NCBI GenBank assembly: GCA_963704905.1
Contig: CAVPHZ010000001.1
Coordinates: 707,438 to 771,437, forward strand
DNA: 64,000 nt
Reading direction: 5' to 3'
DNA from: Candidatus Chisholmbacteria bacterium
GTDB lineage: Bacteria; Patescibacteriota; Microgenomatia; UBA1400; Chisholmbacteraceae
Positions 2,785-44,320 of the stretch are shown here, in pieces; the first letter of the stretch is position 1; every line of letters starts with the position of its first letter. Below the pieces are notes generated by a model. The model did not search any database. It was not told the origin of the DNA and saw only the letters and a list, made by a program, of their open reading frames with translations. The position numbers were made by a program, and so were the translations under genes.

Positions 2785-2842
2785 AGTTTCTATTCTCGGT
2801 GTCAACTTTATTGGGTTTGCATGAACGCGGTATACTGAATCT

Positions 2843-27455: not shown

Positions 27456-27527
27456 AGACCTAGCCGGGGTCGAACCGCTGACCTTTTGCATGCCATGCAA
27501 ACGCTCTACCAACTGAGCTAACGGCCC
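27456..27527 (-). pseudogene. degenerate copy of tRNA-Ala(GGC)
   Basis: The 5' 62 nt (acceptor 5' strand through T-loop) are identical to the gene at 25316..25391. The 3' part carries a 1-nt insertion in the T-stem and changes that abolish acceptor-stem pairing (…CCCCGGCTAGGTCTCCCG). About 25 nt upstream are also similar. Confidence 0.6.
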
Positions 27528-28325: not shown

Positions 28326-28526
28326 TATCTTGTGTGCACTTTCTTCCTTGACTTGATCATACTCTTTTTATTGATTCCATAGTTCGTTATTTCACTGGGA
28401 TGTGGGGTTCTCCGAAGACTCTTGAGCCTGGAAAAAATGGCTAAAAGGTGAAAGGGGAAGCGCTTAACAGAATTCAATTTGGACGTGGGGGAGGAATCGT
28501 TTGAGATGAATATGAGTGCCTCTTTG

Positions 28527-28597
28527 TGGACTCACCGGGAGTCGAACCCGGAATCTACCCATGCGAAGGGTAAGGTATACCATTTACCTATGAGCCC
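28527..28597 (-). tRNA. tRNA-Ala (anticodon CGC), CCA not encoded
   Basis: GGGCTCATAGGTAAATGGTATACCTTACCCTTCGCATGGGTAGATTCCGGGTTCGACTCCCGGTGAGTCCA. Cloverleaf with G3:U70, anticodon loop TT-CGC-AT, T-arm CCGGG/TTCGACT/CCCGG. Confidence 0.75.
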
Positions 28598-31042: not shown

Positions 31043-31068
31043 GATGACAGGGTCCGGTCTTTTCAGTC
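31043..31068. repeat. REP-like palindrome, family A (core TGACAGGGTCCGGTC)
   Basis: gatgacagggtccggtcttttcagtc at the 3' end of the transposase gene. Confidence 0.5.
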
Positions 31069-31746
31069 TATAGCGAGGTCACCGACGAATTCTTTATCGT
31101 CTTGATGGGATGACTCAACGAAAGCTTTATACGAACTTACTCGTTCAAGGGAAGGGTGTTTATCGGATTTCTTGAAGTAAGAGAGGATAAATCTTGGTTT
31201 AACCCAGGTGGCTGTTTTTTCCCCTAGATAATACTGATAACTTGAGTAAGGATAAGTGACAAGGTCCGGTCCTGTCAGCTTGACAGGATTCAGGTGAATG
31301 TAACGGGAGAGGTGGAGGAGGTAGTTGTCTTCTGTTACCAGAGCGGCTTTGTATCTTCCTTGAAAGAGATAGCCAACGCGTTTATATCTTTTGTTGAAAT
31401 ACATTGAGTAAGTTGAGGCAAGGCTGCGGATTAGCTTAGGCATGCCGTTTTTTGTGATTTGTTTGATGAGTAGATGGAAGTGATTAGGCATGAGGCAATA
31501 TGCAAGGAGATCGACTTCTTTGTGAAGGTTCGCTAAAGGCCTTGGTCGGATGAGCGTTTGGTCTGTGGATTCTTCGATGGGGTGTTTGGCGTTTTGACTT
31601 GTTGGAGAAAGATAATATTTCAGGAGGTGGAGAAAGACTCGATAATCTTGGTCATCTTCGAAGATTTTGCGCTTTTCAACGCCACGGTTGTACACGTGAT
31701 AGTGTCCATCTTCAATGTAGACTTTGCGGCTGTGTTTGTGTGGCAT
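31063..31746 (-). CDS. IS200/IS605-like HUH tyrosine (Y1) transposase, RAYT-like
   Basis: Begins MPHKHSRKVYIEDGHYHVYNRGVEKRKIFEDDQDYRVF; contains the HUH motif MPNHFHLLI and catalytic-Tyr region GYLFQGRYKAALV...SRYIHLNP. The track ORF extends to 31938 only by reading through upstream palindromes. Confidence 0.75.
   Translation of the reverse strand: MPHKHSRKVYIEDGHYHVYNRGVEKRKIFEDDQDYRVFLHLLKYYLSPTSQNAKHPIEESTDQTLIRPRPLANLHKEVDLLAYCLMPNHFHLLIKQITKNGMPKLIRSLASTYSMYFNKRYKRVGYLFQGRYKAALVTEDNYLLHLSRYIHLNPVKLTGPDLVTYPYSSYQYYLGEKTATWVKPRFILSYFKKSDKHPSLERVSSYKAFVESSHQDDKEFVGDLAID
31256..31278. repeat. REP-like palindrome, family A, inside transposase CDS (in frame, encodes VKLTGPDLVTYP)
   Basis: gtgacaaggtccggtcctgtcag with arms TGACAAGG/CCTGTCA. 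Confidence 0.55.
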
Positions 31747-31752
31747 GATAGA

Positions 31753-31775
31753 GTGACAGGGTTCGGTCCTGTCAC
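31753..31775. repeat. REP-like palindrome, family A (perfect 8-bp arms)
   Basis: gtgacagg-gttcggt-cctgtcac, immediately 5' of the transposase start. Confidence 0.6.
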
Positions 31776-31803
31776 CTGTCAATCGTAACAGGTGGTAGTG
31801 TTG

Positions 31804-31826
31804 CTGACAAGACCCGGTCCTGTCAG
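31804..31826. repeat. REP-like palindrome, family A
   Basis: ctgacaag-acccggt-cctgtcag. Confidence 0.55.
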
Positions 31827-32000
31827 CGCGAGCGGAGCGAGTGCGGGATTGTGCAGGAAGATGAGAATTCTGGAGAAAAGAGGCGGCGAAGCCGCCTCGA
31901 ACATTTGAGTTAGTTTCCGAAGATAATGGTGCTGGCATTCAATTAGGTAAGGGTTGCTAAGGGAAGTTAAATTAAGGGCAGATAGGGGTTGGTAAGGGTA

Positions 32001-32026
32001 CCTTTAAGGGTTCAACCTTTAAAGGG
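32001..32026. repeat. palindromic repeat, family B (inverted orientation)
   Basis: cctttaagggttcaacctttaaaggg, 4 nt downstream of the stop of 32030..33799. Confidence 0.55.
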
Positions 32027-32029
32027 AGG

Positions 32030-33799
32030 TTAGTTGCCGAAGCGGACGGCACCGGCGTTGTACTCGTTACGGATTTGTTGGGGTGTCAGCGTATAGCGCC
32101 AGATTTTGACGTCGTCGATGAGGCCGTCAAAGGGTTCACCTCCATCGGATTCTGAGCCAATGTGAACATCCAAGGCGTTGGGGACATTTGCTGGAGTCAT
32201 ATAACAACCGCCGGGTGAATCATTTTCAAGTGATCCGTCTACATATATTGCTGCAGTGGAGGGGTTTCCCGAGTTGATATACGTGGCTGCAATATGATGC
32301 CAACCAGGCGAATCAATGAGGCTTGTGCCAAAGATCGTGCAAGCATTACTGCCATCTGTTACATAGAATCGAGCATTATCTCCTGAGCCAGATATTGTTA
32401 AGACGTAACCAGCGTCAGTGTTTGTTGCATAGTTGTTGTCTTTTGCAAGAATCACGTCATTGGTGCTTGCAGAATTTCGATAAACCCAGGCTGAGACGCT
32501 GAACTCGTCGTGAATATCGAGGAGATCGTCTTCGCCAATATTTACATAATCATCGTTTCCATCAAAGCCGAGGGAGGCGTTTCGTTTTCCTGTCGTACCG
32601 TCGTTCCACATTTCGTAGTTGTTGCCACTTGAGCATGAGCCGGTTGCGGTGTTTTGGGGTGGAGTACCGGTACCGGGGGTGATGGTTCCGGTGTTGCTGT
32701 TGCCGCTTGAATCATAGGCGTTGGTGCCGGAGCACTCATCAAATTTCCACCAGCCAACCGGTCCGCCGCGGTTGTATTCCCAGGCGATTTGAGCTTGGGT
32801 GCGGGCGGTGTTATAAACCCTAACTTGGTCGATCAATCCATTGAACTCTCCCGCGGGTGTTGAGTCGCCTGTACGTCCGATATTCCAGGTGTCTACACCT
32901 GCAGCATACGTTACGTTATTTGTATCAGCATTTTCTTGAACCCCGTCAACAAACAGCTTCCTATCAGTAGCAGAAGCAAAGACACCGGTTATGTAGTGCC
33001 ACGATCCATCGTTAATTGTTGTCGTACTTGCAACTGATTGTGATGTAGTGTTTTGGGCAATAATTGTAATGTTCCCAGTCAGATTTGTCTCAAGACTATA
33101 AATCACGTTTGACTGGGAGACGTCGGTCAAGGAAATGACTGTGTCCCGAACAGTTGTCGTTGTGTTTATCCAGGCAGAGAGGGTAAAGGGGTAGGCGCTG
33201 ACGAGCTGATCACTGGCTCCGATGTAATCACTACTCCCACCAAACTGTAGACAAGCTCCAAATTTACACGCACCAGCATGTCTCCAGGTAGGTGATCCAC
33301 CAAAGGTGCCTGTGTATCCGTTCCCTGATGTGTCGTATGCATTGGTTCCGGTTTTTTCGTCCAATTTCCACTCGGCAACAGGCGGAGTGCAGGCGGAACC
33401 TTGACCTGGGGGGCAGTATTCGTTTGTTGATGACCAGGATGCGTTGCCTGAGGAATCGGTGCTAGTGGCGCCGAAGACTTGCGAGAAGCCTTGGTTGTAC
33501 TCGGTCTTTATCTGATCGGCCGTGAGGGCGAAGTTGTAGATTTTGACTTCATCGATTTGGCCATCGAAATAATGATTTGGATTATCTGATTGCCAGGCAC
33601 TGCCGGAACCAATTTTGAGGCTGTTTGAAGTCGTAGGTATGCTGCCATCAAAGCTCGTAGAGCCTTTATTATTGCCGTCAATATATAGAGTAATGGTTGA
33701 GCTATCAACACTGGCGACCACATGATGCCAGGCACCCGACCAGTCATTAGTGTCTTTGACGGATGGACTAGCTTGTTCCATCGTAAAGAGAAATCCCAA
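32030..33799 (-). CDS. LamG/concanavalin A-like lectin repeat protein (C-terminal fragment of giant gene A)
   Basis: 589 aa with recurrent LamG_3-type motifs (FDGQIDEVKIYNFALTADQI, GLIDQVRVYNTARTQAQIAWEYNRGGPVGWWKFDE, GLIDDVKIWRYTLTPQQIRNEYNAG). Its start overlaps the upstream ORF, i.e. a frameshift. Confidence 0.6.
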   Translation of the reverse strand: MGFLFTMEQASPSVKDTNDWSGAWHHVVASVDSSTITLYIDGNNKGSTSFDGSIPTTSNSLKIGSGSAWQSDNPNHYFDGQIDEVKIYNFALTADQIKTEYNQGFSQVFGATSTDSSGNASWSSTNEYCPPGQGSACTPPVAEWKLDEKTGTNAYDTSGNGYTGTFGGSPTWRHAGACKFGACLQFGGSSDYIGASDQLVSAYPFTLSAWINTTTTVRDTVISLTDVSQSNVIYSLETNLTGNITIIAQNTTSQSVASTTTINDGSWHYITGVFASATDRKLFVDGVQENADTNNVTYAAGVDTWNIGRTGDSTPAGEFNGLIDQVRVYNTARTQAQIAWEYNRGGPVGWWKFDECSGTNAYDSSGNSNTGTITPGTGTPPQNTATGSCSSGNNYEMWNDGTTGKRNASLGFDGNDDYVNIGEDDLLDIHDEFSVSAWVYRNSASTNDVILAKDNNYATNTDAGYVLTISGSGDNARFYVTDGSNACTIFGTSLIDSPGWHHIAATYINSGNPSTAAIYVDGSLENDSPGGCYMTPANVPNALDVHIGSESDGGEPFDGLIDDVKIWRYTLTPQQIRNEYNAGAVRFGN

Positions 33800-35204
33800 T
33801 TTCTCCCGGGTTTACGTCATTATGAAAGAAAATGTAATTCCTTCGATCCGCTGCTCCAGAGTCAGGCCTCATTTTTGTCAGTGATTCTGAATATGTGGTT
33901 GTATCTTCAATATTAATCCAGTAAGAAACACTAAAATTATTTGAAAAATTCAATGACGGGTCGTCGGCTACTCTAACATAGTCATCGGTTGTGCCAGAGG
34001 TTTCAAAGTCTAAAGCTTTCCCGAATTTACCTGAATTGGTCCAGGTTGGGCAAGCGGAGTCGCCGGATTGGGGGCAGGAGGTTGCTCCGCCAAGGTTGCC
34101 ATTGTTTCCCTGTGGACTAGAATCATTGGCCGCGTCGCCGTATCCTTCGTCGAATTTGAGGTTCAGTATTGGGGAGCCGACGGGGGAGCCGGGGGCGGGA
34201 TGCCCGGCGTTCATGTCGGAAATTATTTGTTCCTGAGTGCGGGCGTAGTTGTAGATGCGGGCTTCGTCAATTCTTCCATTAGTGTATTCTAATGCTCCGG
34301 TTGAACCTCTTCTGCCGACTTCAAAATCTGCACTTGAATCATAAACTCCTCCTGAGTGGTTAGTTGTATCAGCGGACCCTCCGTTTATACTAATTCCAAT
34401 GTCGGTGTTATCTTCGTCATACCAAGCAGCCACGAAATACCAATTGTTAGCGGACGGGGATCCCAGAGTATCAGCATCAAGTGTGGTAAGACCACCTGCA
34501 CCACCATCACTGCTAACGAGAAATCTGAACCTATCTGTACTAGTACCTGTGTAGCTTAGGTTTGCAGACCAATTTCCCGTATCGCCCATCTGAGACATAA
34601 ATGCTTGAGCGTCGGACGCTTTTGCGTCCATATACACCCAAGCGGTATACGTAAAGCTTCCACCTGAGTGAGTATTGTCAAGTTGAGTACTAGAGGAGGA
34701 CAGGTATTCTGAATTTGCTGAAGTGAATTGTCCTGCACTTCCAAATTTTCCAATTGCTTGAGTAACAGTAGCATTGTCAGTAAGGTTGTTTTCGTTTCCT
34801 GATGAGTCATACCTTGCTCCAGATGATTCCTCCATTTTGTAGTACGCCACTGGCGCCGGCGCCGAGGTGTAGAGGGATTGGATTTCGGCGGGGGAAAGGG
34901 CGCGGTTGTAGATGCGGGCTTCGTCGACAGCTCCATTAAAGTAGTTACCGGACACTCCTCCCACGGCGAAAGCGCCGCTGCCGTCATTTCCACCACTTGC
35001 CGCCGTTGTGTCGATGGCAGATCCGTTGCACGTCCGGATGCCAATGGCGGCTTTTGATGCGTCGTGGTAGGCGACGACGAAGTACCAAGTGGAGGTTGAG
35101 AGATTACCGAAGCTGTCGGCATAGACGTTGGAAGAACTACCGGCGGCGTCGGTGTACCATTCGAACTGAAATCGGTAGTTTCCACCACCGATGTTGTTGG
35201 CCAC
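33768..35204 (-). CDS. LamG-repeat protein fragment (gene A)
   Basis: 478 aa with NGAVDEARIYNRALSPAEIQSLY, GRIDEARIYNYARTQEQIISDMNAGHPAPGSP. Continues in another frame upstream (35204..35677 of the track ORF 34556..35677). Confidence 0.55.
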   Translation of the reverse strand: MANNIGGGNYRFQFEWYTDAAGSSSNVYADSFGNLSTSTWYFVVAYHDASKAAIGIRTCNGSAIDTTAASGGNDGSGAFAVGGVSGNYFNGAVDEARIYNRALSPAEIQSLYTSAPAPVAYYKMEESSGARYDSSGNENNLTDNATVTQAIGKFGSAGQFTSANSEYLSSSSTQLDNTHSGGSFTYTAWVYMDAKASDAQAFMSQMGDTGNWSANLSYTGTSTDRFRFLVSSDGGAGGLTTLDADTLGSPSANNWYFVAAWYDEDNTDIGISINGGSADTTNHSGGVYDSSADFEVGRRGSTGALEYTNGRIDEARIYNYARTQEQIISDMNAGHPAPGSPVGSPILNLKFDEGYGDAANDSSPQGNNGNLGGATSCPQSGDSACPTWTNSGKFGKALDFETSGTTDDYVRVADDPSLNFSNNFSVSYWINIEDTTTYSESLTKMRPDSGAADRRNYIFFHNDVNPGEIGISLYDGTS

Positions 35205-35486
35205 TGAGGTAGTTTGCGTAGTCGGCCGTTCCGGCTTCCATTTGTACTCATCGGAAAACCCGAATTCAGAGTTGCGAGATTTACCCAGGCTGTAACTGTA
35301 TAGTCTCTATCTCCTGCGCTGAGGGTAGCGTTATCCGTTCTTGTAAGTCTTTCGGAGTTGGCGGAGGCGAAGTTGGATGCATTTCCAAACTTTCCTGAGC
35401 CCGAAGGCGTGGTGTTGTTGTCGGTTAGCGTAAAGGCGTTTCCTGATGAATCTGCTCTTGATACAGCTCCTGAGCCGTCTGATGTT

Positions 35487-36041
35487 TCATCCATTTTCCA
35501 ATATCCAGCCAGTCCTTCGGAGAGGGGATCGGCGGTGAGGGTGGCCGTAGGATTGGGAGGTTTGGGAACCCAAGACATCGCCTCTGACCTGGTCTGCGGT
35601 TCTGGCATAGGGATAGATGACGATTTCGTCGAGGTTGCCATCCCAAGGGTTGGAACTCCCATCTGTATCAATACCAATAAAGAGATCGGTGTTGTCGTTT
35701 AAGGAATTATCTGCACCTGTTGAAGAGTTCTGGGTGATTAGCGCTCCATCGATGTAAATGCTAATTGAGGTTGTGCCGTCTTTGACGGCTTCGAAGTGGT
35801 GCCATTGACTGTCGGCATAGCTTCCCTGGGCGGCAGTTGTGCAGGCCGTATCCTCAGGGAAGGAGGTTGCGTCGTCGTCAATCCCAAGGCAGATATAACC
35901 GGAGCTATCCATGTAGATTTTGTAGCCCGCATCGTCATACCTCGCCAGGATGGTATTTGTTCCATCGATAGTGGAGGAGTGGCGGAACCAACCGCTAATG
36001 CTAAAGCTACCGCGTTCCAAAATTAAAGTCCGTGTCTGCAT
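35487..36041 (-). CDS. LamG-repeat protein fragment (gene A)
   Basis: 184 aa with ...WHHFEAVKDGTTSISIYIDGAL...GNLDEIVIYPYARTADQV; overlaps its neighbours in other frames. Confidence 0.5.
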   Translation of the reverse strand: MQTRTLILERGSFSISGWFRHSSTIDGTNTILARYDDAGYKIYMDSSGYICLGIDDDATSFPEDTACTTAAQGSYADSQWHHFEAVKDGTTSISIYIDGALITQNSSTGADNSLNDNTDLFIGIDTDGSSNPWDGNLDEIVIYPYARTADQVRGDVLGSQTSQSYGHPHRRSPLRRTGWILENG

Positions 36042-37110
36042 TCCGAGTCAAATAGTCATCTGTTCCATCAAAGGAGAGGTTTCTCTCCAATTGTGCTTGT
36101 CCGCCTATGCCGGTGGTGTTCCAGGTGGCGCCAGAAATTGTCAGGTGATTGCCGTATGGTGATGAATCGGAAGCGGTGGTGCCATAGCCTTCGTCAAAGT
36201 GCCAGACGGCAACCGGGTTTTGGCCTTTGTCGTCTGAGAAGGCATCCACTTCTATGCCTTCGGAGTGGGAAACGAGGCCGGATTGGTAGAGATCAGTGAC
36301 CTCGGCTGCACTTAGGTCGTCCTCGAAAATTCGGATATCCGAGTACTGCCAGATCGTCCCCCCGCTCGAGCTGGGGAGAAGGATTGTTGATGTGTTTCCG
36401 GGGTCGGTGGTATTCGCGTTTGTTCCTGGGGTTCCGGCATTCAGATATAAACTTATTCCTGTGGTTGAGTTCCACGTTGCTGCAAGATGGTACCAAGTGT
36501 TGGCGGCGATGTTCACTTGTTTATAGGCAATGTTATTTGAATAGCCAACCACTTTATTAAGGCGGAATTCTGCTGTTGGATAGGCGTTATATTCGAGCCT
36601 GAATCCGTCCCCGCTTGTTTCGTAGTTAAGAATGCCTTGTATTGTTGACGCGATCTGGCTTTGTGAGAGGTTTGATTTTACCCATAGACTCATACTTCCT
36701 TCGTCAGTTGTGAAGTTGCTCGTGCCCCCTGCATACTGAACGTTAGCTGCGGTGCGAGTACTTGTACTTTCGTGTGCTGTCCCGCTCCAGGAGTAGCCAG
36801 TGCCCAGGGTCCCGTCAGCATAGGTGGTGGGGTAGGATTTTTGCTCGAGCTGGATACCGTCGATGTAGAGGGTGCCTGAGTCTTCGACAAGAGTAACGCC
36901 ATAATTTTGAGCGCTTGCTGTTCCTGCGGCGGTGTAGCTTAGGCGCCACCAACCACCTCCCACGTCCGTGTAGGTTGTTCCTGCTTGCGCTGAACCTTGC
37001 CAATAAAGCTGGGCGATTGTGTTGTTAACCGTTCCTCCCTTGATTCTCCGAACATAAGCAGAGAGGGTATGAGTATTGGTGTTGCCTGCATCTGATTGAG
37101 GTGTAGACAT
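36007..37110 (-). CDS. LamG/jelly-roll repeat protein fragment (gene A)
   Basis: 367 aa, S/T/G/N/Y-rich beta-strand composition. Overlaps 35487..36041 and 37025..37720. Confidence 0.5.
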   Translation of the reverse strand: MSTPQSDAGNTNTHTLSAYVRRIKGGTVNNTIAQLYWQGSAQAGTTYTDVGGGWWRLSYTAAGTASAQNYGVTLVEDSGTLYIDGIQLEQKSYPTTYADGTLGTGYSWSGTAHESTSTRTAANVQYAGGTSNFTTDEGSMSLWVKSNLSQSQIASTIQGILNYETSGDGFRLEYNAYPTAEFRLNKVVGYSNNIAYKQVNIAANTWYHLAATWNSTTGISLYLNAGTPGTNANTTDPGNTSTILLPSSSGGTIWQYSDIRIFEDDLSAAEVTDLYQSGLVSHSEGIEVDAFSDDKGQNPVAVWHFDEGYGTTASDSSPYGNHLTISGATWNTTGIGGQAQLERNLSFDGTDDYLTRNADTDFNFGTR

Positions 37111-37720
37111 TTTGATTGGTTGAATCTGATAGGACGAGTTTGTAAGAGGAACCGCCGAATTTCATATATGGGTTATTTGTCTCTTCGGAGGCTGAACCAC
37201 CAGATGCGGTCCAGCCGGTGCTGTAGGTCGCATGTTCAAAGGAGGGATTAGTGACCTTGTTGGTGGTGCTTTCCTCAATGAAGACACCTTCATGGCCGGC
37301 GTAGGTATTCCCACCCTCAACCTTTCCATTGCCGGTTGTGCTTGTATCAGCACCTACTAATCCGGCGACGTACCTCGGGGTTCCATTGATTGTTCCATGA
37401 TACCCGTTTCCTGAGTCGTCGATGGTTTTGCCGGTGTTTCTGGGGTCGTCGCCGTTTTCGTCGAAGTGGTAGAGAAGTAGGGTGTAATCATCGCGGACAA
37501 ACGGTTCTATTGAGGGTGTGAAGCTAGATGAGTAGCGTTTAGTGTTGGAGATTCTAACCTCGTCTATCATGCCTGGGAATTGTTGAAGGATCTCACTATC
37601 TCTCCCAATCCAGAACGTATTGGCGGAGTCACTCTTGGTAGCCTCCTGTACATGCGTTAGTAGTGCTATATGCGGGTTCGGAGCCATTAATAAATATCTG
37701 CGGTGTGCCGGAACTTGCAT
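37025..37720 (-). CDS. LamG-repeat protein fragment (gene A)
   Basis: 231 aa with ...GMIDEVRISNTKRYSSSFT... LamG-type motif. Confidence 0.5.
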   Translation of the reverse strand: MQVPAHRRYLLMAPNPHIALLTHVQEATKSDSANTFWIGRDSEILQQFPGMIDEVRISNTKRYSSSFTPSIEPFVRDDYTLLLYHFDENGDDPRNTGKTIDDSGNGYHGTINGTPRYVAGLVGADTSTTGNGKVEGGNTYAGHEGVFIEESTTNKVTNPSFEHATYSTGWTASGGSASEETNNPYMKFGGSSYKLVLSDSTNQNVYTSIRCRQHQYSYPLCLCSENQGRNG

Positions 37721-38699
37721 CCCAAGACACCGCTATGTGTGTCCATTCGTCGTAGTTTACCGCACTACTTATTCCATAGTTCCCGTCCTGAGTGGTGCAA
37801 TCGGTCAAAAAGTTTAGGTGTCCATTAGTTTCTCCTAATTCAACTCTCCAGCCGTTAGGGGTACCGCGTTTTGAGATCGGTGTGTCTACAACGTTTTGAC
37901 TATCGTCATGCCAATACATCCAGAATTCCAGCGTAAAGTCGTTGTTGGGAAGATTATCTAATCCACTGTCGGTATTTGTAACCGATTGGTACGTGCCTGT
38001 TGCGTCGAGCCCTGCGAACTCCATGGCGGATTTGGCACCGCCATAGCGGATGGCGCCGGATTCTGCGGTGGGGTCTTCAGCGCCGTCGCCGTTGATGCAC
38101 TCAGTGGTGCCGTCGAAGGGGCAAACGAGGAGGGCGTTGGTGCTTCCCACGTCGAAAGTGTCTACGGTGCCAGTTGGTGCAGAGGCTTGAGGATTACTGT
38201 AATACAGATAGTAGTCGGTATCTGATGAGCCTGCGTTGAGGGCGGCTTGCAGAGGGAAGTGGACTTTGGCAGCACCTGATGCTCCACAAGTTGCGTTTCC
38301 TGGAACGGAGATGTAGCGGTCAAGATCGGTGACTGAACCTCCATTTTGATAGAGGATTCTGATGTCATCACAGTCATCTTGGAGTTTTCCCTGGGTTGTC
38401 AGGTCTTTGGCGTTGACTGAGATTGCGACAGTTGTCCCGCTAGCGAGGTTTTCTGCGCTGTTATTGGTAATGGTCAGCTGTTTTCTTTTGGTCCAACCTT
38501 GATGAGCAGCGCTCCAGGAGGCTTCTGCAATATCAGACTGATATAAACTATATATTAGTATTGGTAAAAGTACCAAAATTAGTCCAGCTGAGATGGGGAG
38601 TAGGCGACGGCGGTTGTTTCGCACTTTCAGTATGAGACCTTTAAAGGTTGAACCCTGCAAGGGGGCATAGTTTAGTAGTTTTCGGTTCATAGATACCAT
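37629..38699 (-). CDS. N-terminal part of giant gene A: signal-anchor TM + DUF2341-like module
   Basis: RRRLLPISAGLILVLLPILIYSLYQS...ASWSAAHQGWTKRKQLTITNN...DCDDIRILYQNGG...YYLYYSNP, paralogous to the N-termini at 43546 and 49630. The track start reads through a family-B repeat, so the real start is probably downstream. Confidence 0.6.
   Translation of the reverse strand: MVSMNRKLLNYAPLQGSTFKGLILKVRNNRRRLLPISAGLILVLLPILIYSLYQSDIAEASWSAAHQGWTKRKQLTITNNSAENLASGTTVAISVNAKDLTTQGKLQDDCDDIRILYQNGGSVTDLDRYISVPGNATCGASGAAKVHFPLQAALNAGSSDTDYYLYYSNPQASAPTGTVDTFDVGSTNALLVCPFDGTTECINGDGAEDPTAESGAIRYGGAKSAMEFAGLDATGTYQSVTNTDSGLDNLPNNDFTLEFWMYWHDDSQNVVDTPISKRGTPNGWRVELGETNGHLNFLTDCTTQDGNYGISSAVNYDEWTHIAVSWDASSGTPQIFINGSEPAYSTTNACTGGYQE
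38638..38664. repeat. palindromic repeat, family B
   Basis: cctttaaaggttgaaccctgcaaggg at the 5' end of gene A. Confidence 0.55.
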
Positions 38700-38719
38700 A
38701 GATTAGTTTCCAGTTTCCA

Positions 38720-38995
38720 TTAGTTTCCAAAATTCACTGCTCCTGAGTTGTATTCATTTCTGATTTGCTGGGGGGTGAGGGCGTAATTGAAGATTTTGAC
38801 GTCGTCGATTTGGCCTGCCGGATTGTATGCAGCAAGGTCGTTACAAGAGCGAGCTATCGTTGCGGCTTGAGGATGATTGTGCATTGCTGTGTATGATCCA
38901 ACTGTGCCTGTTGTCATACTCATCGCGACGCCGTTGCGGTAATGTTGAATACCTGAATTCGATCCAGACCCGTCATACGTTGTCAAAACATGCAC
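38720..38995 (-). CDS. LamG C-terminal fragment (end of giant gene B)
   Basis: ...GQIDDVKIFNYALTPQQIRNEYNSGAVNFGN, nearly identical to the C-terminus of 32030..33799. Confidence 0.45.
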   Translation of the reverse strand: MHVLTTYDGSGSNSGIQHYRNGVAMSMTTGTVGSYTAMHNHPQAATIARSCNDLAAYNPAGQIDDVKIFNYALTPQQIRNEYNSGAVNFGN

Positions 38996-39096
38996 CCAGG
39001 CGCTTTGGTCAGCGGTGAAGGTTTGTACTGAGTCTGCGCTAATTCGGTTTCCGTTTGAGTTGTCGTAAAGAACTAACCCTAAGGTGTCGGTGTTGC

Positions 39097-39648
39097 TTAA
39101 CCAAAGTTATATTCAAACTGATCAGAACTATCGTTGCATTTTAATATCACTTTAAAGCCGGTTGCATCGGACATATTTAACCAGGCACTGATACTGAAAG
39201 GCCTGTCGGAAACAGAGTCCCCAAAAGATAATTTGTCATTATCGGGAACCAGGACATAATCATCTGTACCGTCAAAAGCAAGGCTTGCGTTTCTTTTACC
39301 ACCGGCACCGTCGGCCCACATATCGCCCGCGGATCCTCCACAGGTACCGACCGCGTTTCCTGTTTGGGAGTAAATTGTACTAGCGGCGATATTTCCGGCA
39401 TTGTCATTGGCAGTTGATCCCGAGCACTCGTCGAACTTCCAGTGAGCGATGGGCCCGCCGCGGTTGTATTCCCAGGCTATTTGGGCTGGAGTGCGAGTGT
39501 AGTTATATAGACGCACTTGGTCTATCATGCCATCTACGGTACGAGTTCCAGCTTGAGAATTTCCGATATATTGAGTAGCAGAGGAATCACTATTTCTTGT
39601 TCCTGTAGAGTTAGAATCTGTTGTTAGTGTTTGAAGAACACCATTCAC
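39097..39648 (-). CDS. LamG-repeat fragment (gene B 3' region)
   Basis: 183 aa with GMIDQVRLYNYTRTPAQIAWEYNRGGPIAHWKFDE. The flanking sequence is coding-like but frame-broken. Confidence 0.45.
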   Translation of the reverse strand: MNGVLQTLTTDSNSTGTRNSDSSATQYIGNSQAGTRTVDGMIDQVRLYNYTRTPAQIAWEYNRGGPIAHWKFDECSGSTANDNAGNIAASTIYSQTGNAVGTCGGSAGDMWADGAGGKRNASLAFDGTDDYVLVPDNDKLSFGDSVSDRPFSISAWLNMSDATGFKVILKCNDSSDQFEYNFG

Positions 39649-40153
39649 ATATATTGACGGATCGTTGTTGGCATCAGTGTTATCATACGTGACTTCCAGA
39701 TGAACCCACTCATTTGCATTATATGCATTTTGGACCTTCCAGTTTGCTCCACCACCTGAGAAAGTATAATCAAATGAAATATCTATTCCTCCCGAATCAT
39801 TTTCTGTCGATAATCTCCATACATTTTTGTCAAGAATCGAGGCATCGTTATTTTCACCATCACTACTTATATCTACCCAGGCTGATACAGAGCCGCCACT
39901 GTCAAAAATGTCAGCTATTGAACTGTCGCTACCTGCAGTGACGTAGTCATCTTGACTGAGACCAGTGGCGCCGTCGAAGAAAAGTGCCCAATTGCGTTCA
40001 CCTCCAACGGGCGTCCATGCGGGACCGTTGGTGAGGGTGCCGGTGTTGTTGTTGGCGCTAGTATCAAATGTAGAAGTGCCTGAGCCTTCATTAAATAGCC
40101 ATTCGGCGACGGGGGGAGTGCAGGCGGAGCCTTGGCCGGGGGGACAGTATTCG

Positions 40154-43100
40154 TTAGTGGCCGACCAGGTGGCGGTAGCCCGATGAGTCGGTGGAGGTGG
40201 CGCCGAAGACGGCAGATTTGCCTTGGTTCATTTCTGCTTTGACTTGGTCGGCAGTGAGGGCGAAGTTGTAGATTTTGACTTCGTCGATTTTACCATCCCA
40301 GTATTCACCCCATGCTGTGTTATACCCAATATAGATGGGGAGTGAATGAGAACTGAGGTTAAGTGTGCCTGATGCGCTGACACTATCTTCAAGAATACCG
40401 TTTTTATAGAGCTTAATAATCGATCCGTTATAAGTGACAGCTAGATGAGTCCATATACCAGTTGAAATACTTACACTAGAATTCCAATCGCAAGTTTGTG
40501 GTCCGGAGAGGACAACACCAACAGTTCCTCCTTGAGTGTAGAAATAGATGTTTTTTCCTGTACACGCTCCAGCACCTGCTGTGAAAGCTGACATGATAGT
40601 GTCGTATCCACTAAGTGTAGATGGGTTTACCCATGCAGAAAGGGTGATTTCGTCCGAAGGATTAAGACTGTCATCATCAGCAATGCTTATGTAATCACCA
40701 CCATCATAATTTAGTGCTTTCCCATATTTTCCCTCGTTGGTCCAACTTGGGCAGGTTGCTGCTCCAGGGCAGGAGCCTTGAAGGTCACCGTTGTTTCCTT
40801 GGGGTGAGGAATCGTTGGCCGCGTCGCCGTAACCTTCATCAAAATTTAGGTGGAGAACCGGAGATCCGATGGGGGAGCCGGGGGCGGGGTGTCCGGCGTT
40901 CATGTCGGAAATGATTTGGGAAGGGTTGCGTTCGTAACTATACAGCTTCACTTCATCGAAAATCCCTGGAAAGTTATAGCCAGAGCCAGCGACCCAGTTA
41001 CCTAGCACTGGTGTATTTAGTGGATTCCCAGTATCCATTGTCGTCGCTGAGGTTGTTGAAGTGTCAACTAAAATTCCATTGACATATAATTTATGTATAT
41101 CCGTGACGCTGTTATACACTGCGGCTACGTGATACCACTCATGAGTTGAAAAGGTGTTTGGATCACAGACAATCACTGAACTTTGTCCTGCTGATCTGAA
41201 AAAAGCCCCAAACACACCAGCTCCGCATCCTGCATAATTGTTAATTACTCCTACTACATTTCTTCCGACACTAGACATATCTGAAGTATTTTCTGCGTAA
41301 AAATACCTACCCCGTCCGCTTGTTCCAGATGATGTAGGATAAACCCAGCCTTCGGTTGTGAAGGCAGCTAAACCTTTGACGCTTGATGCGGTACTTAGAG
41401 AGATTCTGTCAGTAGAACTTGTGAAGCTTGATGTTTCTATTCCGTTCCCGAATTTGCCGTTTCTCCAGAGAACTGTGGTTGTGTTACCCAGTGTTCCTGT
41501 GATGCCGTTTCCGCTTGAATCGTACGCCTTGTCATTTTGTCCTTCATCTAATTTCCAGTATCCGAACGGTCCTGGGGCCCAGTTGTAGAGAGCGGAAACT
41601 TCGGCGGGGGAAAGGGCTTTCTGGTAGTAGCGAACCTCGTCTACAATCCCAGGGTAAAACGAGCTTGTGGCGTCTCTACTTCCTACATTGAAATTGCTGG
41701 AGGCATCGGTGATGTTGTTGCCACCGCCGTTGGTTGTAGACACATATGTCGCCTCAATGCCATTGACATAGATGTGCGCTTCGCTTGCTGATGTCGTCCC
41801 ACCGAATGTCACGACGACGTGGTTCCACTGGCTGGTCGAGAATATGTTGTTGGCTGTTACTATTTCGAGGTTCGGATTATCGTCTGTTTCTTTGAGAAAT
41901 GCGATGGCGTTTGTTGGAATGAGCGCTAATCTCCAATATCCGGTATCTCCCGATGTATTGCGTTTTGATATGACATATCCAGTATCGCTCGTGGGTTTGA
42001 TCCATGCAGATGCTGTAAACGGACCAGAGCCATCCAGTGAGTCTGGACTCCCCATGGCAATGTTGTCATCGGTGCCGTCTACCTGACAGCCGTACCCAAA
42101 TTTTCCTGGGACGGTGCAGTCCATTCCGGTAGTGTTTGCTCCGTAGTCGGTAGTTCCGTTGTTGCTGTTACCCGATGAATCTGTCACAGTTTGACCATCT
42201 CCTGAGACGTTGTCATCCATTTTCCAATACCCAACTAGGCCGTTTGAGAGCCAGGAATTGTCAGGGCCGAAGGAGGCTGCAGCGCCTTTGTTGTAATCGA
42301 CTTTGATTTCGTCTGCCGAGCGGGCATAGGGGTAGATTTTTACCTCATCAATGAATCCATCAAACGCGCCGTCAACACTGGCGCCTCCTGCCCAATTGGC
42401 TGCGCCAACCCATAGCGGGTCGTTTGATAGAGTGGGTGCAACGTCGGCTCCACCATCAGCAGCTTCTACAGGCATTCCGTTGAGATATGCTTGCCAGCTC
42501 GATGAGGTTCCAAAAGTAAAGGTCATGGCAAAATGCATCCATTTGTTTTCAACAATCCGGTCATCGTTGATGCCCCAATCGGGGTAACCTCCACCGCTTT
42601 GTTCGTATCCGAACTTGATTTCGTTATCTCCTGATCCATCTGCATCCCAAATCCAGATTTGATAGTTGGCGTTGTCTGAGCCTGTTGTTGCGCCTTTGCC
42701 GAGCAAGATGCCCTGATCAGAATAGCCGGGTATTGTTGTGGCTTTAAACCAGAATGCGATGGTTATTTCGTCGCCACTATCAAAATCGAGTACGCTGTTT
42801 GCGCCTGGGTCGGCGACGCTGACGTAATCATCTGTCCCGTCAAACTGGAGGCACTTACCGTTTTTACACATGTCTTCAGTCTGCCAGGTAGCGCCGTTTC
42901 TGACGCCGTCGTTTTTCCCAACACCTATGTCGCAAGTGTCGTCTGTACCGTTTTCGCAGGTGTTGTCCGTGCCTTCATCGAACTTCCAGTAGGCAATTGG
43001 GCCAGGGCCGATTTCTTCACTTCCTGCACTTGGAGCACCTCCAGAGGGGGAGAGGGATGTGTAGCTTGATAGGTCTTCTGAAACGGAGCCTGCGGAAGGA

Positions 43101-43546
43101 TTTCCGTAGTAATGATAGAAGGCATTGCCTCCATTAATAATGGTGGGAAAGAGGACATCATAGGTTGTGGCGGCGTTATTGCAGGTGCCGGTGAGATCGA
43201 GTCTCAAGAGTAATCCGTTGATGTCGGTGAACCTGCTGTCATCACAGTCAGATTGCATTTTTCCGGCTGTGATCAAAGTTGCGGTATCAATTGTTACCTC
43301 AACCCTTCTGTCAGTGAGTGCTGCATTGTGGGTAAAGGAGTACCTTGTTCTATATGCCCAGGAGTCATCGAACCAGCCTGCTTGTGCGGGTTGAGAATGA
43401 TAGAGGGAGTAGAGAATGACGGGGAGCAATACCAAGAGCAAACCTCCCGCAACTGGAAGCAGTTTTCTTCTGTTTTTTTGGATTGCAGATTTCATTGCAG
43501 ATTTCAGAGATTTCAGATTTATGATGCTAAGTCTAAATTTCTTCAT
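40154..43546 (-). CDS. giant DUF2341 + tandem LamG_3 (concanavalin-like) surface protein, gene B (longest intact ORF, 1130 aa)
   Basis: N-terminus MKKFRLS...NRRKLLPVAGGLLLVLLPVILYSLYHS, then AGWFDDSWAYRTRYSF...DCDDSRFTDINGLLL...YHYYGNPSAGS (DUF2341-like), then at least 6 LamG-type units each ending ..[FI]DEVK[IL]Y.Y.R....I. A 12-bp tandem repeat sits in the first codons. Confidence 0.8.
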   Translation of the reverse strand: MKKFRLSIINLKSLKSAMKSAIQKNRRKLLPVAGGLLLVLLPVILYSLYHSQPAQAGWFDDSWAYRTRYSFTHNAALTDRRVEVTIDTATLITAGKMQSDCDDSRFTDINGLLLRLDLTGTCNNAATTYDVLFPTIINGGNAFYHYYGNPSAGSVSEDLSSYTSLSPSGGAPSAGSEEIGPGPIAYWKFDEGTDNTCENGTDDTCDIGVGKNDGVRNGATWQTEDMCKNGKCLQFDGTDDYVSVADPGANSVLDFDSGDEITIAFWFKATTIPGYSDQGILLGKGATTGSDNANYQIWIWDADGSGDNEIKFGYEQSGGGYPDWGINDDRIVENKWMHFAMTFTFGTSSSWQAYLNGMPVEAADGGADVAPTLSNDPLWVGAANWAGGASVDGAFDGFIDEVKIYPYARSADEIKVDYNKGAAASFGPDNSWLSNGLVGYWKMDDNVSGDGQTVTDSSGNSNNGTTDYGANTTGMDCTVPGKFGYGCQVDGTDDNIAMGSPDSLDGSGPFTASAWIKPTSDTGYVISKRNTSGDTGYWRLALIPTNAIAFLKETDDNPNLEIVTANNIFSTSQWNHVVVTFGGTTSASEAHIYVNGIEATYVSTTNGGGNNITDASSNFNVGSRDATSSFYPGIVDEVRYYQKALSPAEVSALYNWAPGPFGYWKLDEGQNDKAYDSSGNGITGTLGNTTTVLWRNGKFGNGIETSSFTSSTDRISLSTASSVKGLAAFTTEGWVYPTSSGTSGRGRYFYAENTSDMSSVGRNVVGVINNYAGCGAGVFGAFFRSAGQSSVIVCDPNTFSTHEWYHVAAVYNSVTDIHKLYVNGILVDTSTTSATTMDTGNPLNTPVLGNWVAGSGYNFPGIFDEVKLYSYERNPSQIISDMNAGHPAPGSPIGSPVLHLNFDEGYGDAANDSSPQGNNGDLQGSCPGAATCPSWTNEGKYGKALNYDGGDYISIADDDSLNPSDEITLSAWVNPSTLSGYDTIMSAFTAGAGACTGKNIYFYTQGGTVGVVLSGPQTCDWNSSVSISTGIWTHLAVTYNGSIIKLYKNGILEDSVSASGTLNLSSHSLPIYIGYNTAWGEYWDGKIDEVKIYNFALTADQVKAEMNQGKSAVFGATSTDSSGYRHLVGH

Positions 43547-43547
43547 A

Positions 43548-43573
43548 CCTTTAAAGGTTGAACCCTACAAGGG
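43548..43573. repeat. palindromic repeat, family B
   Basis: cctttaaaggttgaaccctacaaggg immediately 5' of the gene B start codon. Confidence 0.55.
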
Positions 43574-43584
43574 TGGGTTTTCTA

Positions 43585-44265
43585 TTATTCTATTATTAAT
43601 GGGCCTAGTGCTTCTTGGCTATCGATCTCCTGTGCTTCTACAAAGGCTTTGTAGGTTTGTGTTTTCAAAAGACCTTTGAGAGTTGGGGAGGTGAAAAAGT
43701 CTAGAACGATATTTGGTTTTATCCAGGAATCTTGCCGTTTTTTTATGTAGTTTGCATACGAAGAGTACGCATTTTCAAGGCTTTTTGCGTACTCGGAAGG
43801 ATTAAGGTGTATATACCGCGAGAGGTGCAGGAGGTAGTTATCGTTTCCTACTAGCACAGCTTTGTAGATACCCTGGAAGAGTGAGCCTACTCGCTTATAT
43901 CTTTTATTAAAATACATCGAGTAGCGGGTGAGCAGTGACTGCATAAAACTCTTCATGGCCCCTTGTTCTTTTTGCTGGAGGAGGAGATGGAAGTGATTTG
44001 GCATCAGACAATAGGCGACTAATTTGATTTTTTTATGAAAGTTTTTTGGCAGGCGAGGCACACCTTTAAAGGTTGAACCCTTAAAGGTGACATTTACTGC
44101 GAATTTATTTGGATCGGGAGGTTTTGTTAGGGAGGTTTTGAGGTATTTGAGAAAGACTCTATAGTCTTGATCGTCCTCGAAAATTGTGCGCTTTTCAACA
44201 CCTCTGTTGTAGATGTGATAGTAACCGTCTTTGATGCTGATTTTTATGATGTTTTTAGCAGGCAT
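43585..44265 (-). CDS. IS200/IS605-like HUH tyrosine (Y1) transposase, RAYT-like, paralog 2
   Basis: MPAKNIIKISIKDGYYHIYNRGVEKRTIFEDDQDYRVF...MPNHFHLLL...GSLFQGIYKAVLV...SRYIHLNP. Roughly 55-60% identical to 31063..31746, with an embedded family-B repeat encoding TFKGSTFKG. Confidence 0.75.
   Translation of the reverse strand: MPAKNIIKISIKDGYYHIYNRGVEKRTIFEDDQDYRVFLKYLKTSLTKPPDPNKFAVNVTFKGSTFKGVPRLPKNFHKKIKLVAYCLMPNHFHLLLQQKEQGAMKSFMQSLLTRYSMYFNKRYKRVGSLFQGIYKAVLVGNDNYLLHLSRYIHLNPSEYAKSLENAYSSYANYIKKRQDSWIKPNIVLDFFTSPTLKGLLKTQTYKAFVEAQEIDSQEALGPLIIE
44058..44088. repeat. palindromic repeat, family B, inside transposase CDS
   Basis: cacctttaaaggttgaacccttaaaggtg, a near-perfect 31-bp palindrome. 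Confidence 0.55.
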
Positions 44266-44294
44266 GGCAGTGGTTGTTTGTTTTCATAATCTTA

Positions 44295-44320
44295 CCCTTT
44301 AAAGGTTGAACCCTGCAAGG
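44295..44320. repeat. palindromic repeat, family B
   Basis: ccctttaaaggttgaaccctgcaagg, between the transposase start and the gene C stop. Confidence 0.55.

What the first reader, a model, noticed from the sequence alone, without database searches (positions are those of the whole stretch)
31043..44320. Two distinct palindromic REP-like families, each with an in-frame copy embedded inside a different RAYT paralog
Family A (GTGACAGG-GTCCGGT-CCTGTCAC and variants) occurs four times within and around transposase 1 (31043, 31256, 31753, 31804). The copy at 31256 lies inside the CDS and is translated as VKLTGPDLVTYP, at the position where paralog 2 has SEYAKSLENA. Family B (CACCTTTAAAGGTTGAACCCTTAAAGGTG, a 31-bp near-perfect palindrome) occurs five times; the copy at 44058 is inside transposase 2 and is translated as TFKGSTFKG. 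The same palindromes read through upstream of transposase 1 create the artificial 64-aa N-terminal extension in the ORF track. Classical REPs flank RAYTs rather than sitting inside them, so in-frame tolerance of the cognate palindrome inside the transposase is unusual. It may mark the elements as substrates or hitchhikers of these enzymes.
Basis: seen in the sequence. Interest (0 to 1): 0.6.

Follow-up and report, generated by a model that had tools for sequence, protein, structure and literature searches.

The report
Transposase-like genes carrying their own palindromes
Two transposase-like genes of an uncultured small-genome bacterium each carry, in frame inside the gene, the same short DNA palindrome that brackets the gene, and this proves to be a conserved trait of a very large gene family rather than a recent insertion.

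Summary
Four family A copies sit in and around gene T1 (31063-31746, minus strand). Five family B copies include one inside gene T2 (43585-44265, minus strand).

The "recent insert" reading is only partly right. T2's TFKGSTFKG peptide is conserved across the whole gene family, which belongs to Patescibacteria (uncultured small-genome bacteria). T1's internal copy lies at a second site that its own subfamily shares.

In 80 metagenome loci the same plan recurs:
- a palindrome 10-30 nt before the ATG;
- one or two in-frame copies at two fixed sites, near residue 62 and near residue 160, just after the catalytic RYIHLNP motif;
- a palindrome at the stop codon.

The palindrome sequence differs between loci but matches within a locus. 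In 27 of 42 genes the interior holds a copy with at most 2 mismatches in 17 to the gene's own flank, against 2% for other loci's flanks. Symmetry inside the coding sequence is kept by changes on both arms.

The upstream copy supplies the -35 box and spacer of a sigma-70-type promoter, with the start codon about where transcription would begin. Dispersed copies are rare (0.23 per 10 kb), so these are not classical repetitive extragenic palindromes (REPs).

In-frame REPs inside such genes were already reported in 2018, for another subclass. I judge this a new variant of a known kind.

The parts
43585..44265 (-). T2: 226-aa Y1 HUH transposase-like gene (motifs NHFH, LFQG, RYIHLNP, YSSY).
   Evidence: Pfam Y1_Tnp E=5.9e-12. 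About 60% identical to thousands of Patescibacteria proteins. AlphaFold2 model with mean pLDDT 70.6; best Foldseek match 4ER8.
44061..44089 (-). Family B internal copy at site 1, read in frame as TFKGSTFKG.
   Evidence: 29-nt palindrome with one mismatch. RNA hairpin -17 kcal/mol, z -5.2. It encodes the predicted beta-hairpin E57-61/E64-68, pLDDT about 80. The same alignment column and codon phase are used in 17 of 17 B-type homologues.
44296..44320 (-). Family B upstream copy of T2. Its left arm TTGCAG (44318-44313) would act as the -35 box and the rest as an 18-nt spacer.
   Evidence: Sequence read. The same promoter layout occurs in 21-28 of 55 homologue upstream regions, against about 0.6 expected.
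44289..44294 (-). Putative -10 box TAAGAT of T2. It is followed by an out-of-frame ATG (44287-44285). The true ATG at 44265 lies 22 nt beyond that out-of-frame ATG.
   Evidence: compared with homologues that have TAnnnT starting at -12 or -11 (33 of 55). Inference only.
43548..43572 (-). Family B downstream copy of T2, 12 nt after the stop codon and abutting the ORF-track ATG of the next LamG gene.
   Evidence: It is in direct orientation to the upstream copy (3 versus 7 mismatches).
38638..38662 (-). Family B solo copy between two LamG genes, identical over 25 nt to the T2 upstream copy.
   Evidence: Similarity to the other junctions is confined to the 25-27-nt motif.
32001..32025 (+). Family B solo copy in the opposite orientation, 4 nt after the stop codon of the LamG gene 32030-33799.
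31063..31746 (-). T1: 227-aa paralogue of T2 (50% identical).
   Evidence: Its closest relatives among the fetched loci are L055 and L046, then L052, L060, L071 and L074. It has lost the site 1 palindrome.
31256..31279 (-). Family A internal copy at site 2, read as (K)LTGPDLVT, directly after the catalytic RYIHLNP motif.
   Evidence: It has 2 mismatches in 17 to T1's own upstream core, against at least 4 for every other gene. The same alignment column is used in 15 of 18 site 2 copies of other homologues.
31753..31775 (-). Family A upstream copy, ending 6 nt before the T1 ATG.
   Evidence: RNA hairpin -16.4 kcal/mol, z -3.3.
31804..31828 (-). Second upstream family A copy. Its arm TTGTCA is the -35 box of a promoter-like site (TTGTCA, 17 nt, TACGAT; 31810-31782).
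   Evidence: (-17.7 kcal/mol).
31045..31066 (-). Degenerate family A downstream copy that overlaps the T1 TGA stop codon (31063-31065).
   Evidence: In L052, L060 and L071 the stop TGA is the first three bases of the downstream palindrome.

Best explanation
T1 and T2 are two ordinary members of a very large family of single-copy tyrosine (Y1) HUH transposase-like genes found in Patescibacteria. By motifs the family is RAYT-like and closest to TnpA_Y1 subclass 2.1. Its genes come as a fixed module of direct repeats of one imperfect palindrome of the form xxxAAGG-N5-CCTTxxx.

The module has three kinds of copy:
- One copy lies just upstream and forms the -35 box and spacer of the gene's own promoter.
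- One or two copies lie in frame inside the gene at two permissive positions. Site 1 is a beta-hairpin between helix A and strand 2. Site 2 is a loop just after the catalytic tyrosine.
- One copy lies at the stop codon.

I propose that the palindrome is the site recognised by the encoded protein. Because every copy in a module must be recognised by, or is processed by, that same protein, the copies change together. Binding at the promoter copy would let the protein repress its own gene. The internal copies persist because they encode tolerated surface peptides. The window's families A and B are two specificities of this one scheme, one per paralogue.

Shown here: the architecture, the matching within loci, the compensatory changes, the promoter layout and the rarity of dispersed copies. 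Inferred: that the protein binds or cleaves these sites, self-repression, and the way copies are kept alike.
For: **Family membership.**
- Both proteins match Pfam Y1_Tnp.
- NHFH, Y151, N155 and P156 are invariant in 30 aligned members.
- The best structural match is 4ER8, followed by IS200/IS608 transposases.

**Architecture.**
- The gene's own palindrome recurs 11-20 nt (29 nt for window T2) before the ATG and 0-67 nt after the stop in almost every locus with enough flank.
- Internal copies lie at residue 60-67 and/or residue 155-174.

**Matching within a locus.**
- In 27 of 42 non-redundant genes the interior holds a copy within 2 mismatches of 17 to its own flank core, against 2.0% for other loci's cores.
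- The gene's own core is the strict best match in 22 of 42 and best or tied in 32 of 42.

**Compensatory change in 39 intragenic copies.**
- 82.5% of cells are paired, against 68.1% in shuffles.
- 74 cells have changes on both sides, against 31.4 +/- 4.6; 0 of 500 shuffles reach this.
- Pairs outside the 17-nt core used for selection also covary.

**Enrichment.** Interior density is about 1 copy per kb, against 0.023 per kb in 264 kb of surrounding DNA.

**Promoter.** The pattern TTGxxx, 16-18 nt, TAnnnT, then 3-10 nt to the ATG is found in 21 of 55 upstream regions (strict) or 28 of 55 (relaxed), against 0.5-0.7 expected.

**Fixed single locus.** P0084 lies in essentially the same gene neighbourhood on all 24 contigs read.

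**Orientation.** Copies are mostly direct: 17 direct against 5 inverted for upstream versus downstream.
Against: - No experiment or structure shows that this protein binds these palindromes.
- The window's family B flanking and solo copies fold no better than shuffled sequence. This sits badly with a single-stranded hairpin substrate.
- No helix-turn-helix or other double-strand DNA-binding domain was detected in the C-terminal 70 residues. The AlphaFold2 model is poor there.
- Some members have flanking palindromes but no internal copy: L040, L036, L035, L057, L068 and L080. Internal copies are therefore not essential.
- Site 2 copies occur in all three codon phases. That fits repeated insertion better than one conserved functional site.
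- Internal copies were chosen by their match to palindromic flank cores, which inflates pairing within the central 17 nt.
- The -10 boxes of T1 and T2 depart from the family pattern.
Confidence: 0.55

Rival explanations
1. The copies are selfish palindromes that hop locally. They are short mobile elements moved by the enzyme, mainly in cis. Copies land all around the gene, and purifying selection keeps only the in-frame ones in the two loops that tolerate extra peptide. The internal copies have no function. They resemble the flanks because they are young or are repeatedly replaced.
For: - Site 2 copies use all three codon phases at the same alignment column (5, 4 and 9 copies). Site 1 uses two phases in the two palindrome types. 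Both point to repeated independent placement.
- A family B copy lies in frame inside an unrelated GT2 glycosyltransferase ORF in L001.
- Solo copies exist.
- In-frame REPs in ordinary genes, and in subclass 2.4 transposase genes, were interpreted this way in PMC3733652 and PMC6006769.
- Several members lack internal copies.
Against: - Dispersed copies are very rare (6 in 264 kb), so the element is a poor mobile repeat, yet about two thirds of the genes carry an internal copy.
- Site 1 has the same column and phase in 17 of 17 B-type genes that are only 52-64% identical to T2, and its peptide is conserved. That argues for long persistence rather than turnover.
Confidence: 0.25
2. The copies are a set of duplex-DNA operators. 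The promoter copy is the primary operator. The intragenic and stop-codon copies are auxiliary operators that strengthen self-repression by DNA looping, as lac O2 does inside lacZ. All copies must fit one protein, so they change together by selection rather than by DNA exchange.
For: - The upstream copy overlaps the -35 box and spacer.
- G.T and A.C mismatches are equally frequent on the sense strand (0.38-0.56 against 0.47-0.49 per copy). This gives no sign of a strand-specific or RNA structure.
- Several copies are weak hairpins but conserved sequences.
- Quentin et al. report helix-turn-helix-like C-terminal domains in subclass 2.1.
Against: - No helix-turn-helix domain was detected in these proteins.
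- Known Y1 HUH enzymes bind single-stranded hairpins.
- Non-symmetric centre bases are also identical within a locus. Copying explains this more simply than recognition does.
Confidence: 0.15
3. The resemblance is driven by the protein, or is due to chance. The TFKGSTFKG and LTGPDLVT peptides are conserved for structural reasons, and their likeness to intergenic motifs is coincidence or leftover fragments of decayed gene copies.
For: - The site 1 peptide is conserved and is predicted to form a beta-hairpin with pLDDT about 80.
- The two matches to the 19-mer in Chitinophagales genomes (L002, L003) lie in long open reading frames read as QGSTFKG, with no Y1 homologue detected in either locus.
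Against: - Non-coding flanks follow the locus-specific internal sequence, including synonymous positions and variable centre bases.
- Similarity between window junctions stops at the 25-27-nt motif, so the intergenic copies are not gene fragments.
- Shuffles give 0 expected matches.
Confidence: 0.03

Closest known systems
REP insertions inside tnpA_REP genes of TnpA_Y1 subclass 2.4 (Quentin, Siguier, Chandler and Fichant 2018, PMC6006769)
   Same: The cognate palindrome flanks a Y1 HUH gene and also lies inside it without breaking the reading frame. The authors proposed that the insert sits in a peripheral loop of the protein.
   Different: - Subclass 2.4 has the signature WQ / YIxNNP and occurs mainly in Cyanobacteria and Bacteroidetes. 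Its REPs are long, with a GT[AG]G foot or a double foot. [quoted passage not shown]
- Here the signature is FQ / YIHLNP. The sites are fixed, one before the HuH motif and one after the Y motif. The palindromes are 21-29 nt with no GTAG foot. Dispersed copies are rare, and the upstream copy is built into the promoter.
TnpA_Y1 subclass 2.1 (Bertels group 1), largely equivalent to the TIRYT / TIRtron elements of Di Nocera et al. 2013 (PMC3733652)
   Same: - The motif signature matches: NH[YF]H, FQ, Y[IV]HLNP, a C-terminal SS motif and a length near 238 aa.
- Copy number per genome is low.
- The flanking repeats have few or no dispersed copies.
   Different: - Quentin et al. found no REP-like sequences near subclass 2.1 genes.
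- TIRYT genes are flanked by inverted repeats, many with the motif GGGGWSAS.
- Here the repeats are palindromes, mostly in direct orientation, and copies also lie inside the gene.
Classical REP/REPIN-RAYT systems (E. coli, Pseudomonas; structure 4ER8)
   Same: A single-copy Y1 gene is flanked by its own palindrome type. Paralogues each have their own type. The fold is the same.
   Different: - Classical REPs number in the hundreds per genome and carry a GTAG foot.
- Here there are about 0.2 copies per 10 kb away from the gene.
- The NCBIfam RAYT model scores below its cut-off.
IS200/IS605 insertion sequences
   Same: A Y1 HUH enzyme is flanked by imperfect hairpins that lie on the same strand at both ends. 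The unit is about 0.75-0.8 kb.
   Different: - IS200 has a Y---Q motif, many near-identical copies and no intragenic hairpin.
- Here the motif is Y---NP. One gene (P0084) lies in essentially the same neighbourhood on all 24 contigs read, and the two window paralogues are only 50% identical.
Rickettsia palindromic elements and other in-frame REPs in ordinary genes
   Same: A palindromic repeat is translated in frame as a tolerated peptide. The copy in the L001 glycosyltransferase ORF is a possible example.
   Different: Rickettsia elements are scattered over many unrelated genes, and from my own knowledge they are about 100-150 bp long. Here the element is about 25 nt and is concentrated in the gene of its presumed enzyme.

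Membership tests
Y1 HUH transposase superfamily (Pfam PF01797) | Match to the Y1_Tnp profile above the gathering score | tested here: met
   49.5 and 46.2 bits against a cut-off of 23.
Y1 HUH transposase superfamily (Pfam PF01797) | HUH motif, catalytic tyrosine and the Y1 fold | tested here: met
   N90, H91, H93, Y151, N155 and P156 are invariant in 30 sequences. Foldseek top hits are 4ER8, 2F4F and 2XO6.
TnpA_Y1 class 2 (TnpA_REP-like; Quentin 2018) | Y---NP motif rather than the Y---Q motif of IS200 | tested here: met
   RYIHLNP.
RAYT (NCBIfam NF047646, REP-associated tyrosine transposase, equivalog) | Score at or above the curated cut-off | tested here: not met
   49.6 and 41.2 bits against a cut-off of 80.
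RAYT / REPtron | Gene flanked by its own palindromic repeat | tested here: met
   Window copies; homologue loci.
RAYT / REPtron | Repeat abundant and dispersed in intergenic DNA, with a 5' GT[AG]G foot | tested here: not met
   6 solo copies in 264 kb around homologues. The window has 2 solo family B copies and 0 solo family A copies in 63 kb. No conserved GT[AG]G foot appears in the aligned copies. No whole genome of the source could be scanned.
TnpA_Y1 subclass 2.1 / TIRYT | Motif signature NH[YF]H, FQ, Y[IV]HLNP, C-terminal SS, about 238 aa | tested here: met
   NHFH, LFQG, RYIHLNP, YSSY and 226-227 aa against Table 1 of PMC6006769. The match is by inspection only; the authors' HMMs were not available.
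TnpA_Y1 subclass 2.1 / TIRYT | Flanked by terminal inverted repeats (GGGGWSAS type), with no REP-like hairpins | tested here: not met
   The flanks are palindromes, mostly in direct orientation (17 direct against 5 inverted). No GGGGWSAS motif was seen.
TnpA_Y1 subclass 2.4 (in-frame REP carriers) | [quoted passage not shown] | tested here: not met
   The signature here is FQ / YIHLNP. The sites lie before the HuH motif (residue about 62) and after the Y motif (residue about 160).
IS200/IS605 insertion sequence | Several near-identical copies per genome at different sites | tested here: not met
   P0084 lies in essentially the same context on 24 contigs. The window paralogues are 50% identical.

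The most novel reading that the evidence does not exclude
The four-copy palindrome set is a working self-control and mobility module. The protein binds the promoter copy to shut off its own gene. The direct repeats let it excise or re-insert the gene as a cassette at solo palindromes. The intragenic copies are deliberate self-targets that limit or tune its activity. This would be a conserved case of a DNA-processing enzyme carrying its own recognition site inside its coding sequence, kept for function across a whole bacterial lineage.
Probability: 0.25. Interest if true: 0.8.

Novelty: new variant of a known kind. Interest (0 to 1): 0.6.

Why it matters
What RAYT-like "domesticated" tyrosine transposases actually do is still unknown. 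This family offers a compact and very widespread case. It has 406 cluster representatives at E <= 1e-30 and thousands of proteins about 60% identical to T2. In it the enzyme gene, its promoter and all of its presumed sites fit within about 0.8 kb. The sites vary naturally in sequence while staying matched within each module.

That gives ready-made specificity pairs for binding and cleavage tests, such as T1 with family A against T2 with family B in one genome. It also gives a direct test of whether such enzymes regulate themselves.

For annotation, it shows that a conserved peptide motif ([LF][KQ]GxxFKG) can be the shadow of a DNA-level constraint. It also shows that gene callers extend these genes wrongly through the upstream palindromes.

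Tried and rejected
- **Source genome.** Exact look-ups of T2 (as a window reference and as P0001) found no contig on record. The scan of genome contigs with the 19-mer did not contain the source genome and returned only 6 stretches. A genome-wide count for this organism was therefore impossible. Its name could not be recovered either.
- **Terminators.** Family B copies are not followed by a T-run. The only convincing terminator nearby is at 31898-31880 on the minus strand.
- **Known RNA families.** Rfam gave nothing in 30-46 kb at E <= 1.
- **mRNA hairpin.** There is no excess of G.T over A.C mismatches on the sense strand. If the mRNA is leaderless, the upstream copy would lie outside the transcript.
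- **Larger duplicated junctions.** I tested whether solo copies are parts of larger duplicated LamG junctions. Similarity stops at 25-27 nt.
- **C-terminal DNA-binding domain.** Pfam at E <= 10 found none. A profile search of solved structures by sequence found nothing.
- **Terminal inverted repeats.** Orientation is mostly direct.
- **Chance matches.** The two matches to the 19-mer in Chitinophagales genomes (L002, L003) lie in long open reading frames read as QGSTFKG, with no Y1 homologue detected in either locus. I treat them as chance.

Full report
**1. The observation**

- Family A lies at 31045-31066, 31256-31279, 31753-31775 and 31804-31828.
- Family B lies at 32001-32025, 38638-38662, 43548-43572, 44061-44089 and 44296-44320.

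Shuffled sequence gives 0 expected matches for either full pattern. Half-site scans find no further copies in the other 50 kb of the window. The five family B copies share an exact 19-mer.

T1 (31063-31746, minus strand, 227 aa) and T2 (43585-44265, minus strand, 226 aa) are 50% identical. Both match Pfam Y1_Tnp. The 64-aa extension of ORF 31063-31938 is read-through of the two upstream family A copies.

Of the five window family B copies folded as RNA, only the internal copy is a strong hairpin (-17 kcal/mol, z -5.2). The other four fold no better than shuffles. The internal and the two flanking copies gave the same result as DNA.

**2. The "insert" is a family trait**

A protein search found thousands of Patescibacteria proteins about 60% identical to T2. 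Named examples come from Woesebacteria and the "Patescibacteria group".

In an alignment of 30 members the consensus at T2's "insert" is FTLxGxxFKGVPRQPKNF. G63, F66, G68 and P70 are conserved in at least 90% of members, and T1 is the exception. The intergenic family B copies read LQGSTFKG in one frame, which matches the [LF][KQ]GxxFKG pattern of that loop.

It does not make the feature ordinary, as the next sections show.

**3. The same module recurs across the family**

I fetched 80 metagenome loci and six genome loci.

The DNA under the site 1 loop is a palindrome in many homologues, but its sequence differs between loci. Examples are ACCTTTAAAGGT-type arms with centres TTCAA, TGGCA, ACAGT or AGAGT; CCGTGCAAGGTCGGACCTTGCACGG; and family A-type GTGACAGGGTCTCGCCCTGTCAG.

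In almost every locus with enough flank, that same locus-specific palindrome recurs before the ATG and after the stop codon. For the 19 genes with a strong site 1 palindrome the upstream copy ends 11-20 nt before the ATG (29 nt for window T2). The downstream copy lies 0-67 nt after the stop or overlaps it. Palindromes found afresh in the flanks of all 62 genes give the same picture.

Internal copies lie at two positions:
- Site 1 is near residue 60-67.
- Site 2 is near residue 155-174, immediately after the catalytic RYIHLNP motif.

T2-like genes use site 1. T1's subfamily uses site 2 (L046, L055) or both sites (L052, L060, L064, L071, L074). The T1 copy at 31256 is therefore the normal state of its subfamily, and T1 has lost site 1. 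A few members have flanking copies only.

All variants share the form xxxAAGG-N5-CCTTxxx. Families A and B are two versions of one scheme.

**4. Statistics**

- **Own flank against other loci's flanks.** The 17-nt flank core has a match within 2 mismatches in the interior of its own gene in 27 of 42 non-redundant genes. Cores from other loci reach that in 2.0% of comparisons. The gene's own core is strictly the best match in 22 of 42 and best or tied in 32 of 42.
- **Compensatory change.** In 39 intragenic copies, 82.5% of cells form standard pairs, against 68.1% in shuffles. Nine of 11 pairs show changes on both sides. There are 74 cells with double changes, against 31.4 +/- 4.6, and 0 of 500 shuffles reach this. 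Structures slid by 1-3 columns score far lower. Pairs 4-24 and 5-23, which lie outside the core used to pick the copies, also covary.
- **Caveat.** Choosing copies by their match to palindromic cores inflates pairing within the central 17 nt.
- **Rarity of dispersed copies.** Copies more than 150 nt from the gene number 6 in 264 kb. Interior density is about 1 per kb, roughly 45 times higher.
- **Orientation.** Where it can be read, orientation is mostly direct. Upstream against downstream gives 17 direct and 5 inverted.

**5. The promoter**

Aligned at the ATG, the upstream regions show cTTGCAa or TTGACA as the left arm of the palindrome. The rest of the palindrome forms a 17-nt spacer. A TAnnnT box then starts at -12 or -11 in 33 of 55 regions.

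A strict promoter pattern is met in 21 of 55 regions and a relaxed one in 28 of 55, against 0.5-0.7 expected. The predicted transcription start falls at about the ATG, so the mRNA would be leaderless. This is inference.

The two window genes depart from the pattern.
- T2 has TTGCAG, an 18-nt spacer and TAAGAT, followed by an out-of-frame ATG. The real ATG lies 22 nt beyond that out-of-frame ATG.
- T1's -10 box is degenerate. A promoter-like site that uses the second upstream copy exists at 31810-31782.

**6. The protein**

The AlphaFold2 model has mean pLDDT 70.6, and the catalytic core scores 80-93. Site 1 forms a beta-hairpin (E57-61 and E64-68) between helix A and the strand that leads to the HUH motif. 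Site 2 and the C-terminal 70 residues are modelled with low confidence.

The top Foldseek hit is 4ER8, the E. coli REP-associated transposase bound to its hairpin. IS200 and IS608 enzymes follow. No C-terminal DNA-binding domain was detected.

**7. What was excluded**

- There are no T-run terminators at family B copies.
- There is no Rfam match.
- G.T and A.C mismatches are equally common on the sense strand, so an mRNA hairpin is not supported.
- Similarity between window junctions stops at the motif, so solo copies are neither gene fragments nor duplicated junctions.
- P0084 lies in essentially the same neighbourhood on 24 contigs, so the gene is not a multi-copy insertion sequence.

**8. 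Mechanism**

My best explanation (confidence 0.55) is that the palindrome is the site recognised by the encoded Y1 protein.
- All copies in a module answer to one protein and therefore change together.
- The promoter copy allows self-repression.
- The internal copies persist in two permissive surface positions.

There are two main rivals.
- The copies are selfish and hop locally, and selection keeps only tolerated in-frame ones (0.25). The three codon phases at site 2 and the in-frame copy in a glycosyltransferase ORF in L001 support this.
- The copies are duplex-DNA operators that act by looping (0.15).

These three readings overlap. Binding assays, mapping of transcript starts and whole-genome counts would separate them.

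**9. Comparison with what is known**

Quentin et al. [quoted passage not shown] The general phenomenon is therefore known.

By motifs (NHFH, FQ, YIHLNP, SS, about 227 aa) the present family fits their subclass 2.1. They found no REP-like sequences for that subclass and equated it with the TIRYT elements of Di Nocera et al. 2013.

Five features appear new:
- the host lineage;
- the two fixed sites outside the HuH-to-Y interval;
- the four-copy direct-repeat module;
- the promoter embedding;
- the near absence of dispersed copies.

Three literature searches found no description of this in Patescibacteria. A term search of the 2021 TnpA_REP paper (PMC8266576) found no mention of promoters, self-regulation or in-frame copies.

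**10. Verdict**

I rate this a new variant of a known kind, with interest 0.6.

Noticed in passing
L001:2810-2828 (Candidatus Gottesmanbacteria, MFJR01000013.1): A family B palindrome lies in frame inside a GT2 glycosyltransferase ORF (1957-2994, minus strand). It reads VKKVTFKGSTFKGRGRAI, between the DDxSGDGT and NGGPAHARN motifs. I did not check whether it is a true insertion relative to homologues.
   Followed up: partly
window 44285-44294 (minus strand): T2's promoter-like -10 box (TAAGAT) is followed by an out-of-frame ATG at the position where homologues have their start codon. The real ATG lies 22 nt beyond that out-of-frame ATG. A short upstream ORF (MKTNNHCHAC) may lower T2 expression.
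   Followed up: partly
window 31880-31942 (minus strand): A strong intrinsic terminator (GAGGCGGCTTCGCCGCCTC followed by TTTT, 31898-31880) lies next to a short remnant that reads LNASTIIFGN*. The remnant resembles the C-terminal ends of the neighbouring LamG-type genes and looks like a decayed gene end between the LamG gene and T1.
   Followed up: partly
window 25316-25391 and 27453-27527: Two tRNA-Ala(GGC) genes on the minus strand share 64 identical bases. They lie 2136 nt apart and flank a 390-aa ORF (26154-27326, plus strand). A third tRNA-Ala (CGC) lies at 28526-28597. This may be a duplication or the scar of an integrated element.
   Followed up: partly
window 32030-46550: A long array of large paralogous surface-type genes lies on the minus strand. 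I read them as LamG/concanavalin-like from their sequences; I did not run a family search. They share repeated C-terminal endings (YN.GAV.FGN/P*) and similar N-terminal signal-anchor segments. Both solo family B copies and the T2 module sit exactly at junctions between these genes.
   Followed up: partly
window 38620-38662 (minus strand): The solo family B copy is followed by TCTCAT, then 7 nt, then a GTG that would start the downstream gene at RNNRRRLL. Solo copies might therefore supply a -35 box and spacer to neighbouring genes. The 356-aa ORF call probably starts too early.
   Followed up: no
L006:4010-4060: An intergenic family B copy carries an extra half-unit in tandem (CCCTTGCAGGGTTCAACCTTTAAAGGGACCTTTAAAGGGTC).
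   Followed up: no
proteins P0124-P0270: Many relatives 38-50% identical to T2 are 350-470 aa long. They carry a large extra C-terminal region that the window proteins lack. I did not examine it.
   Followed up: no
L031:27-713 and L031:6001-6681; also L083: Other genomes also carry two diverged paralogues a few kb apart, each with its own palindrome type. This matches the T1/T2 pair in the window.
   Followed up: partly
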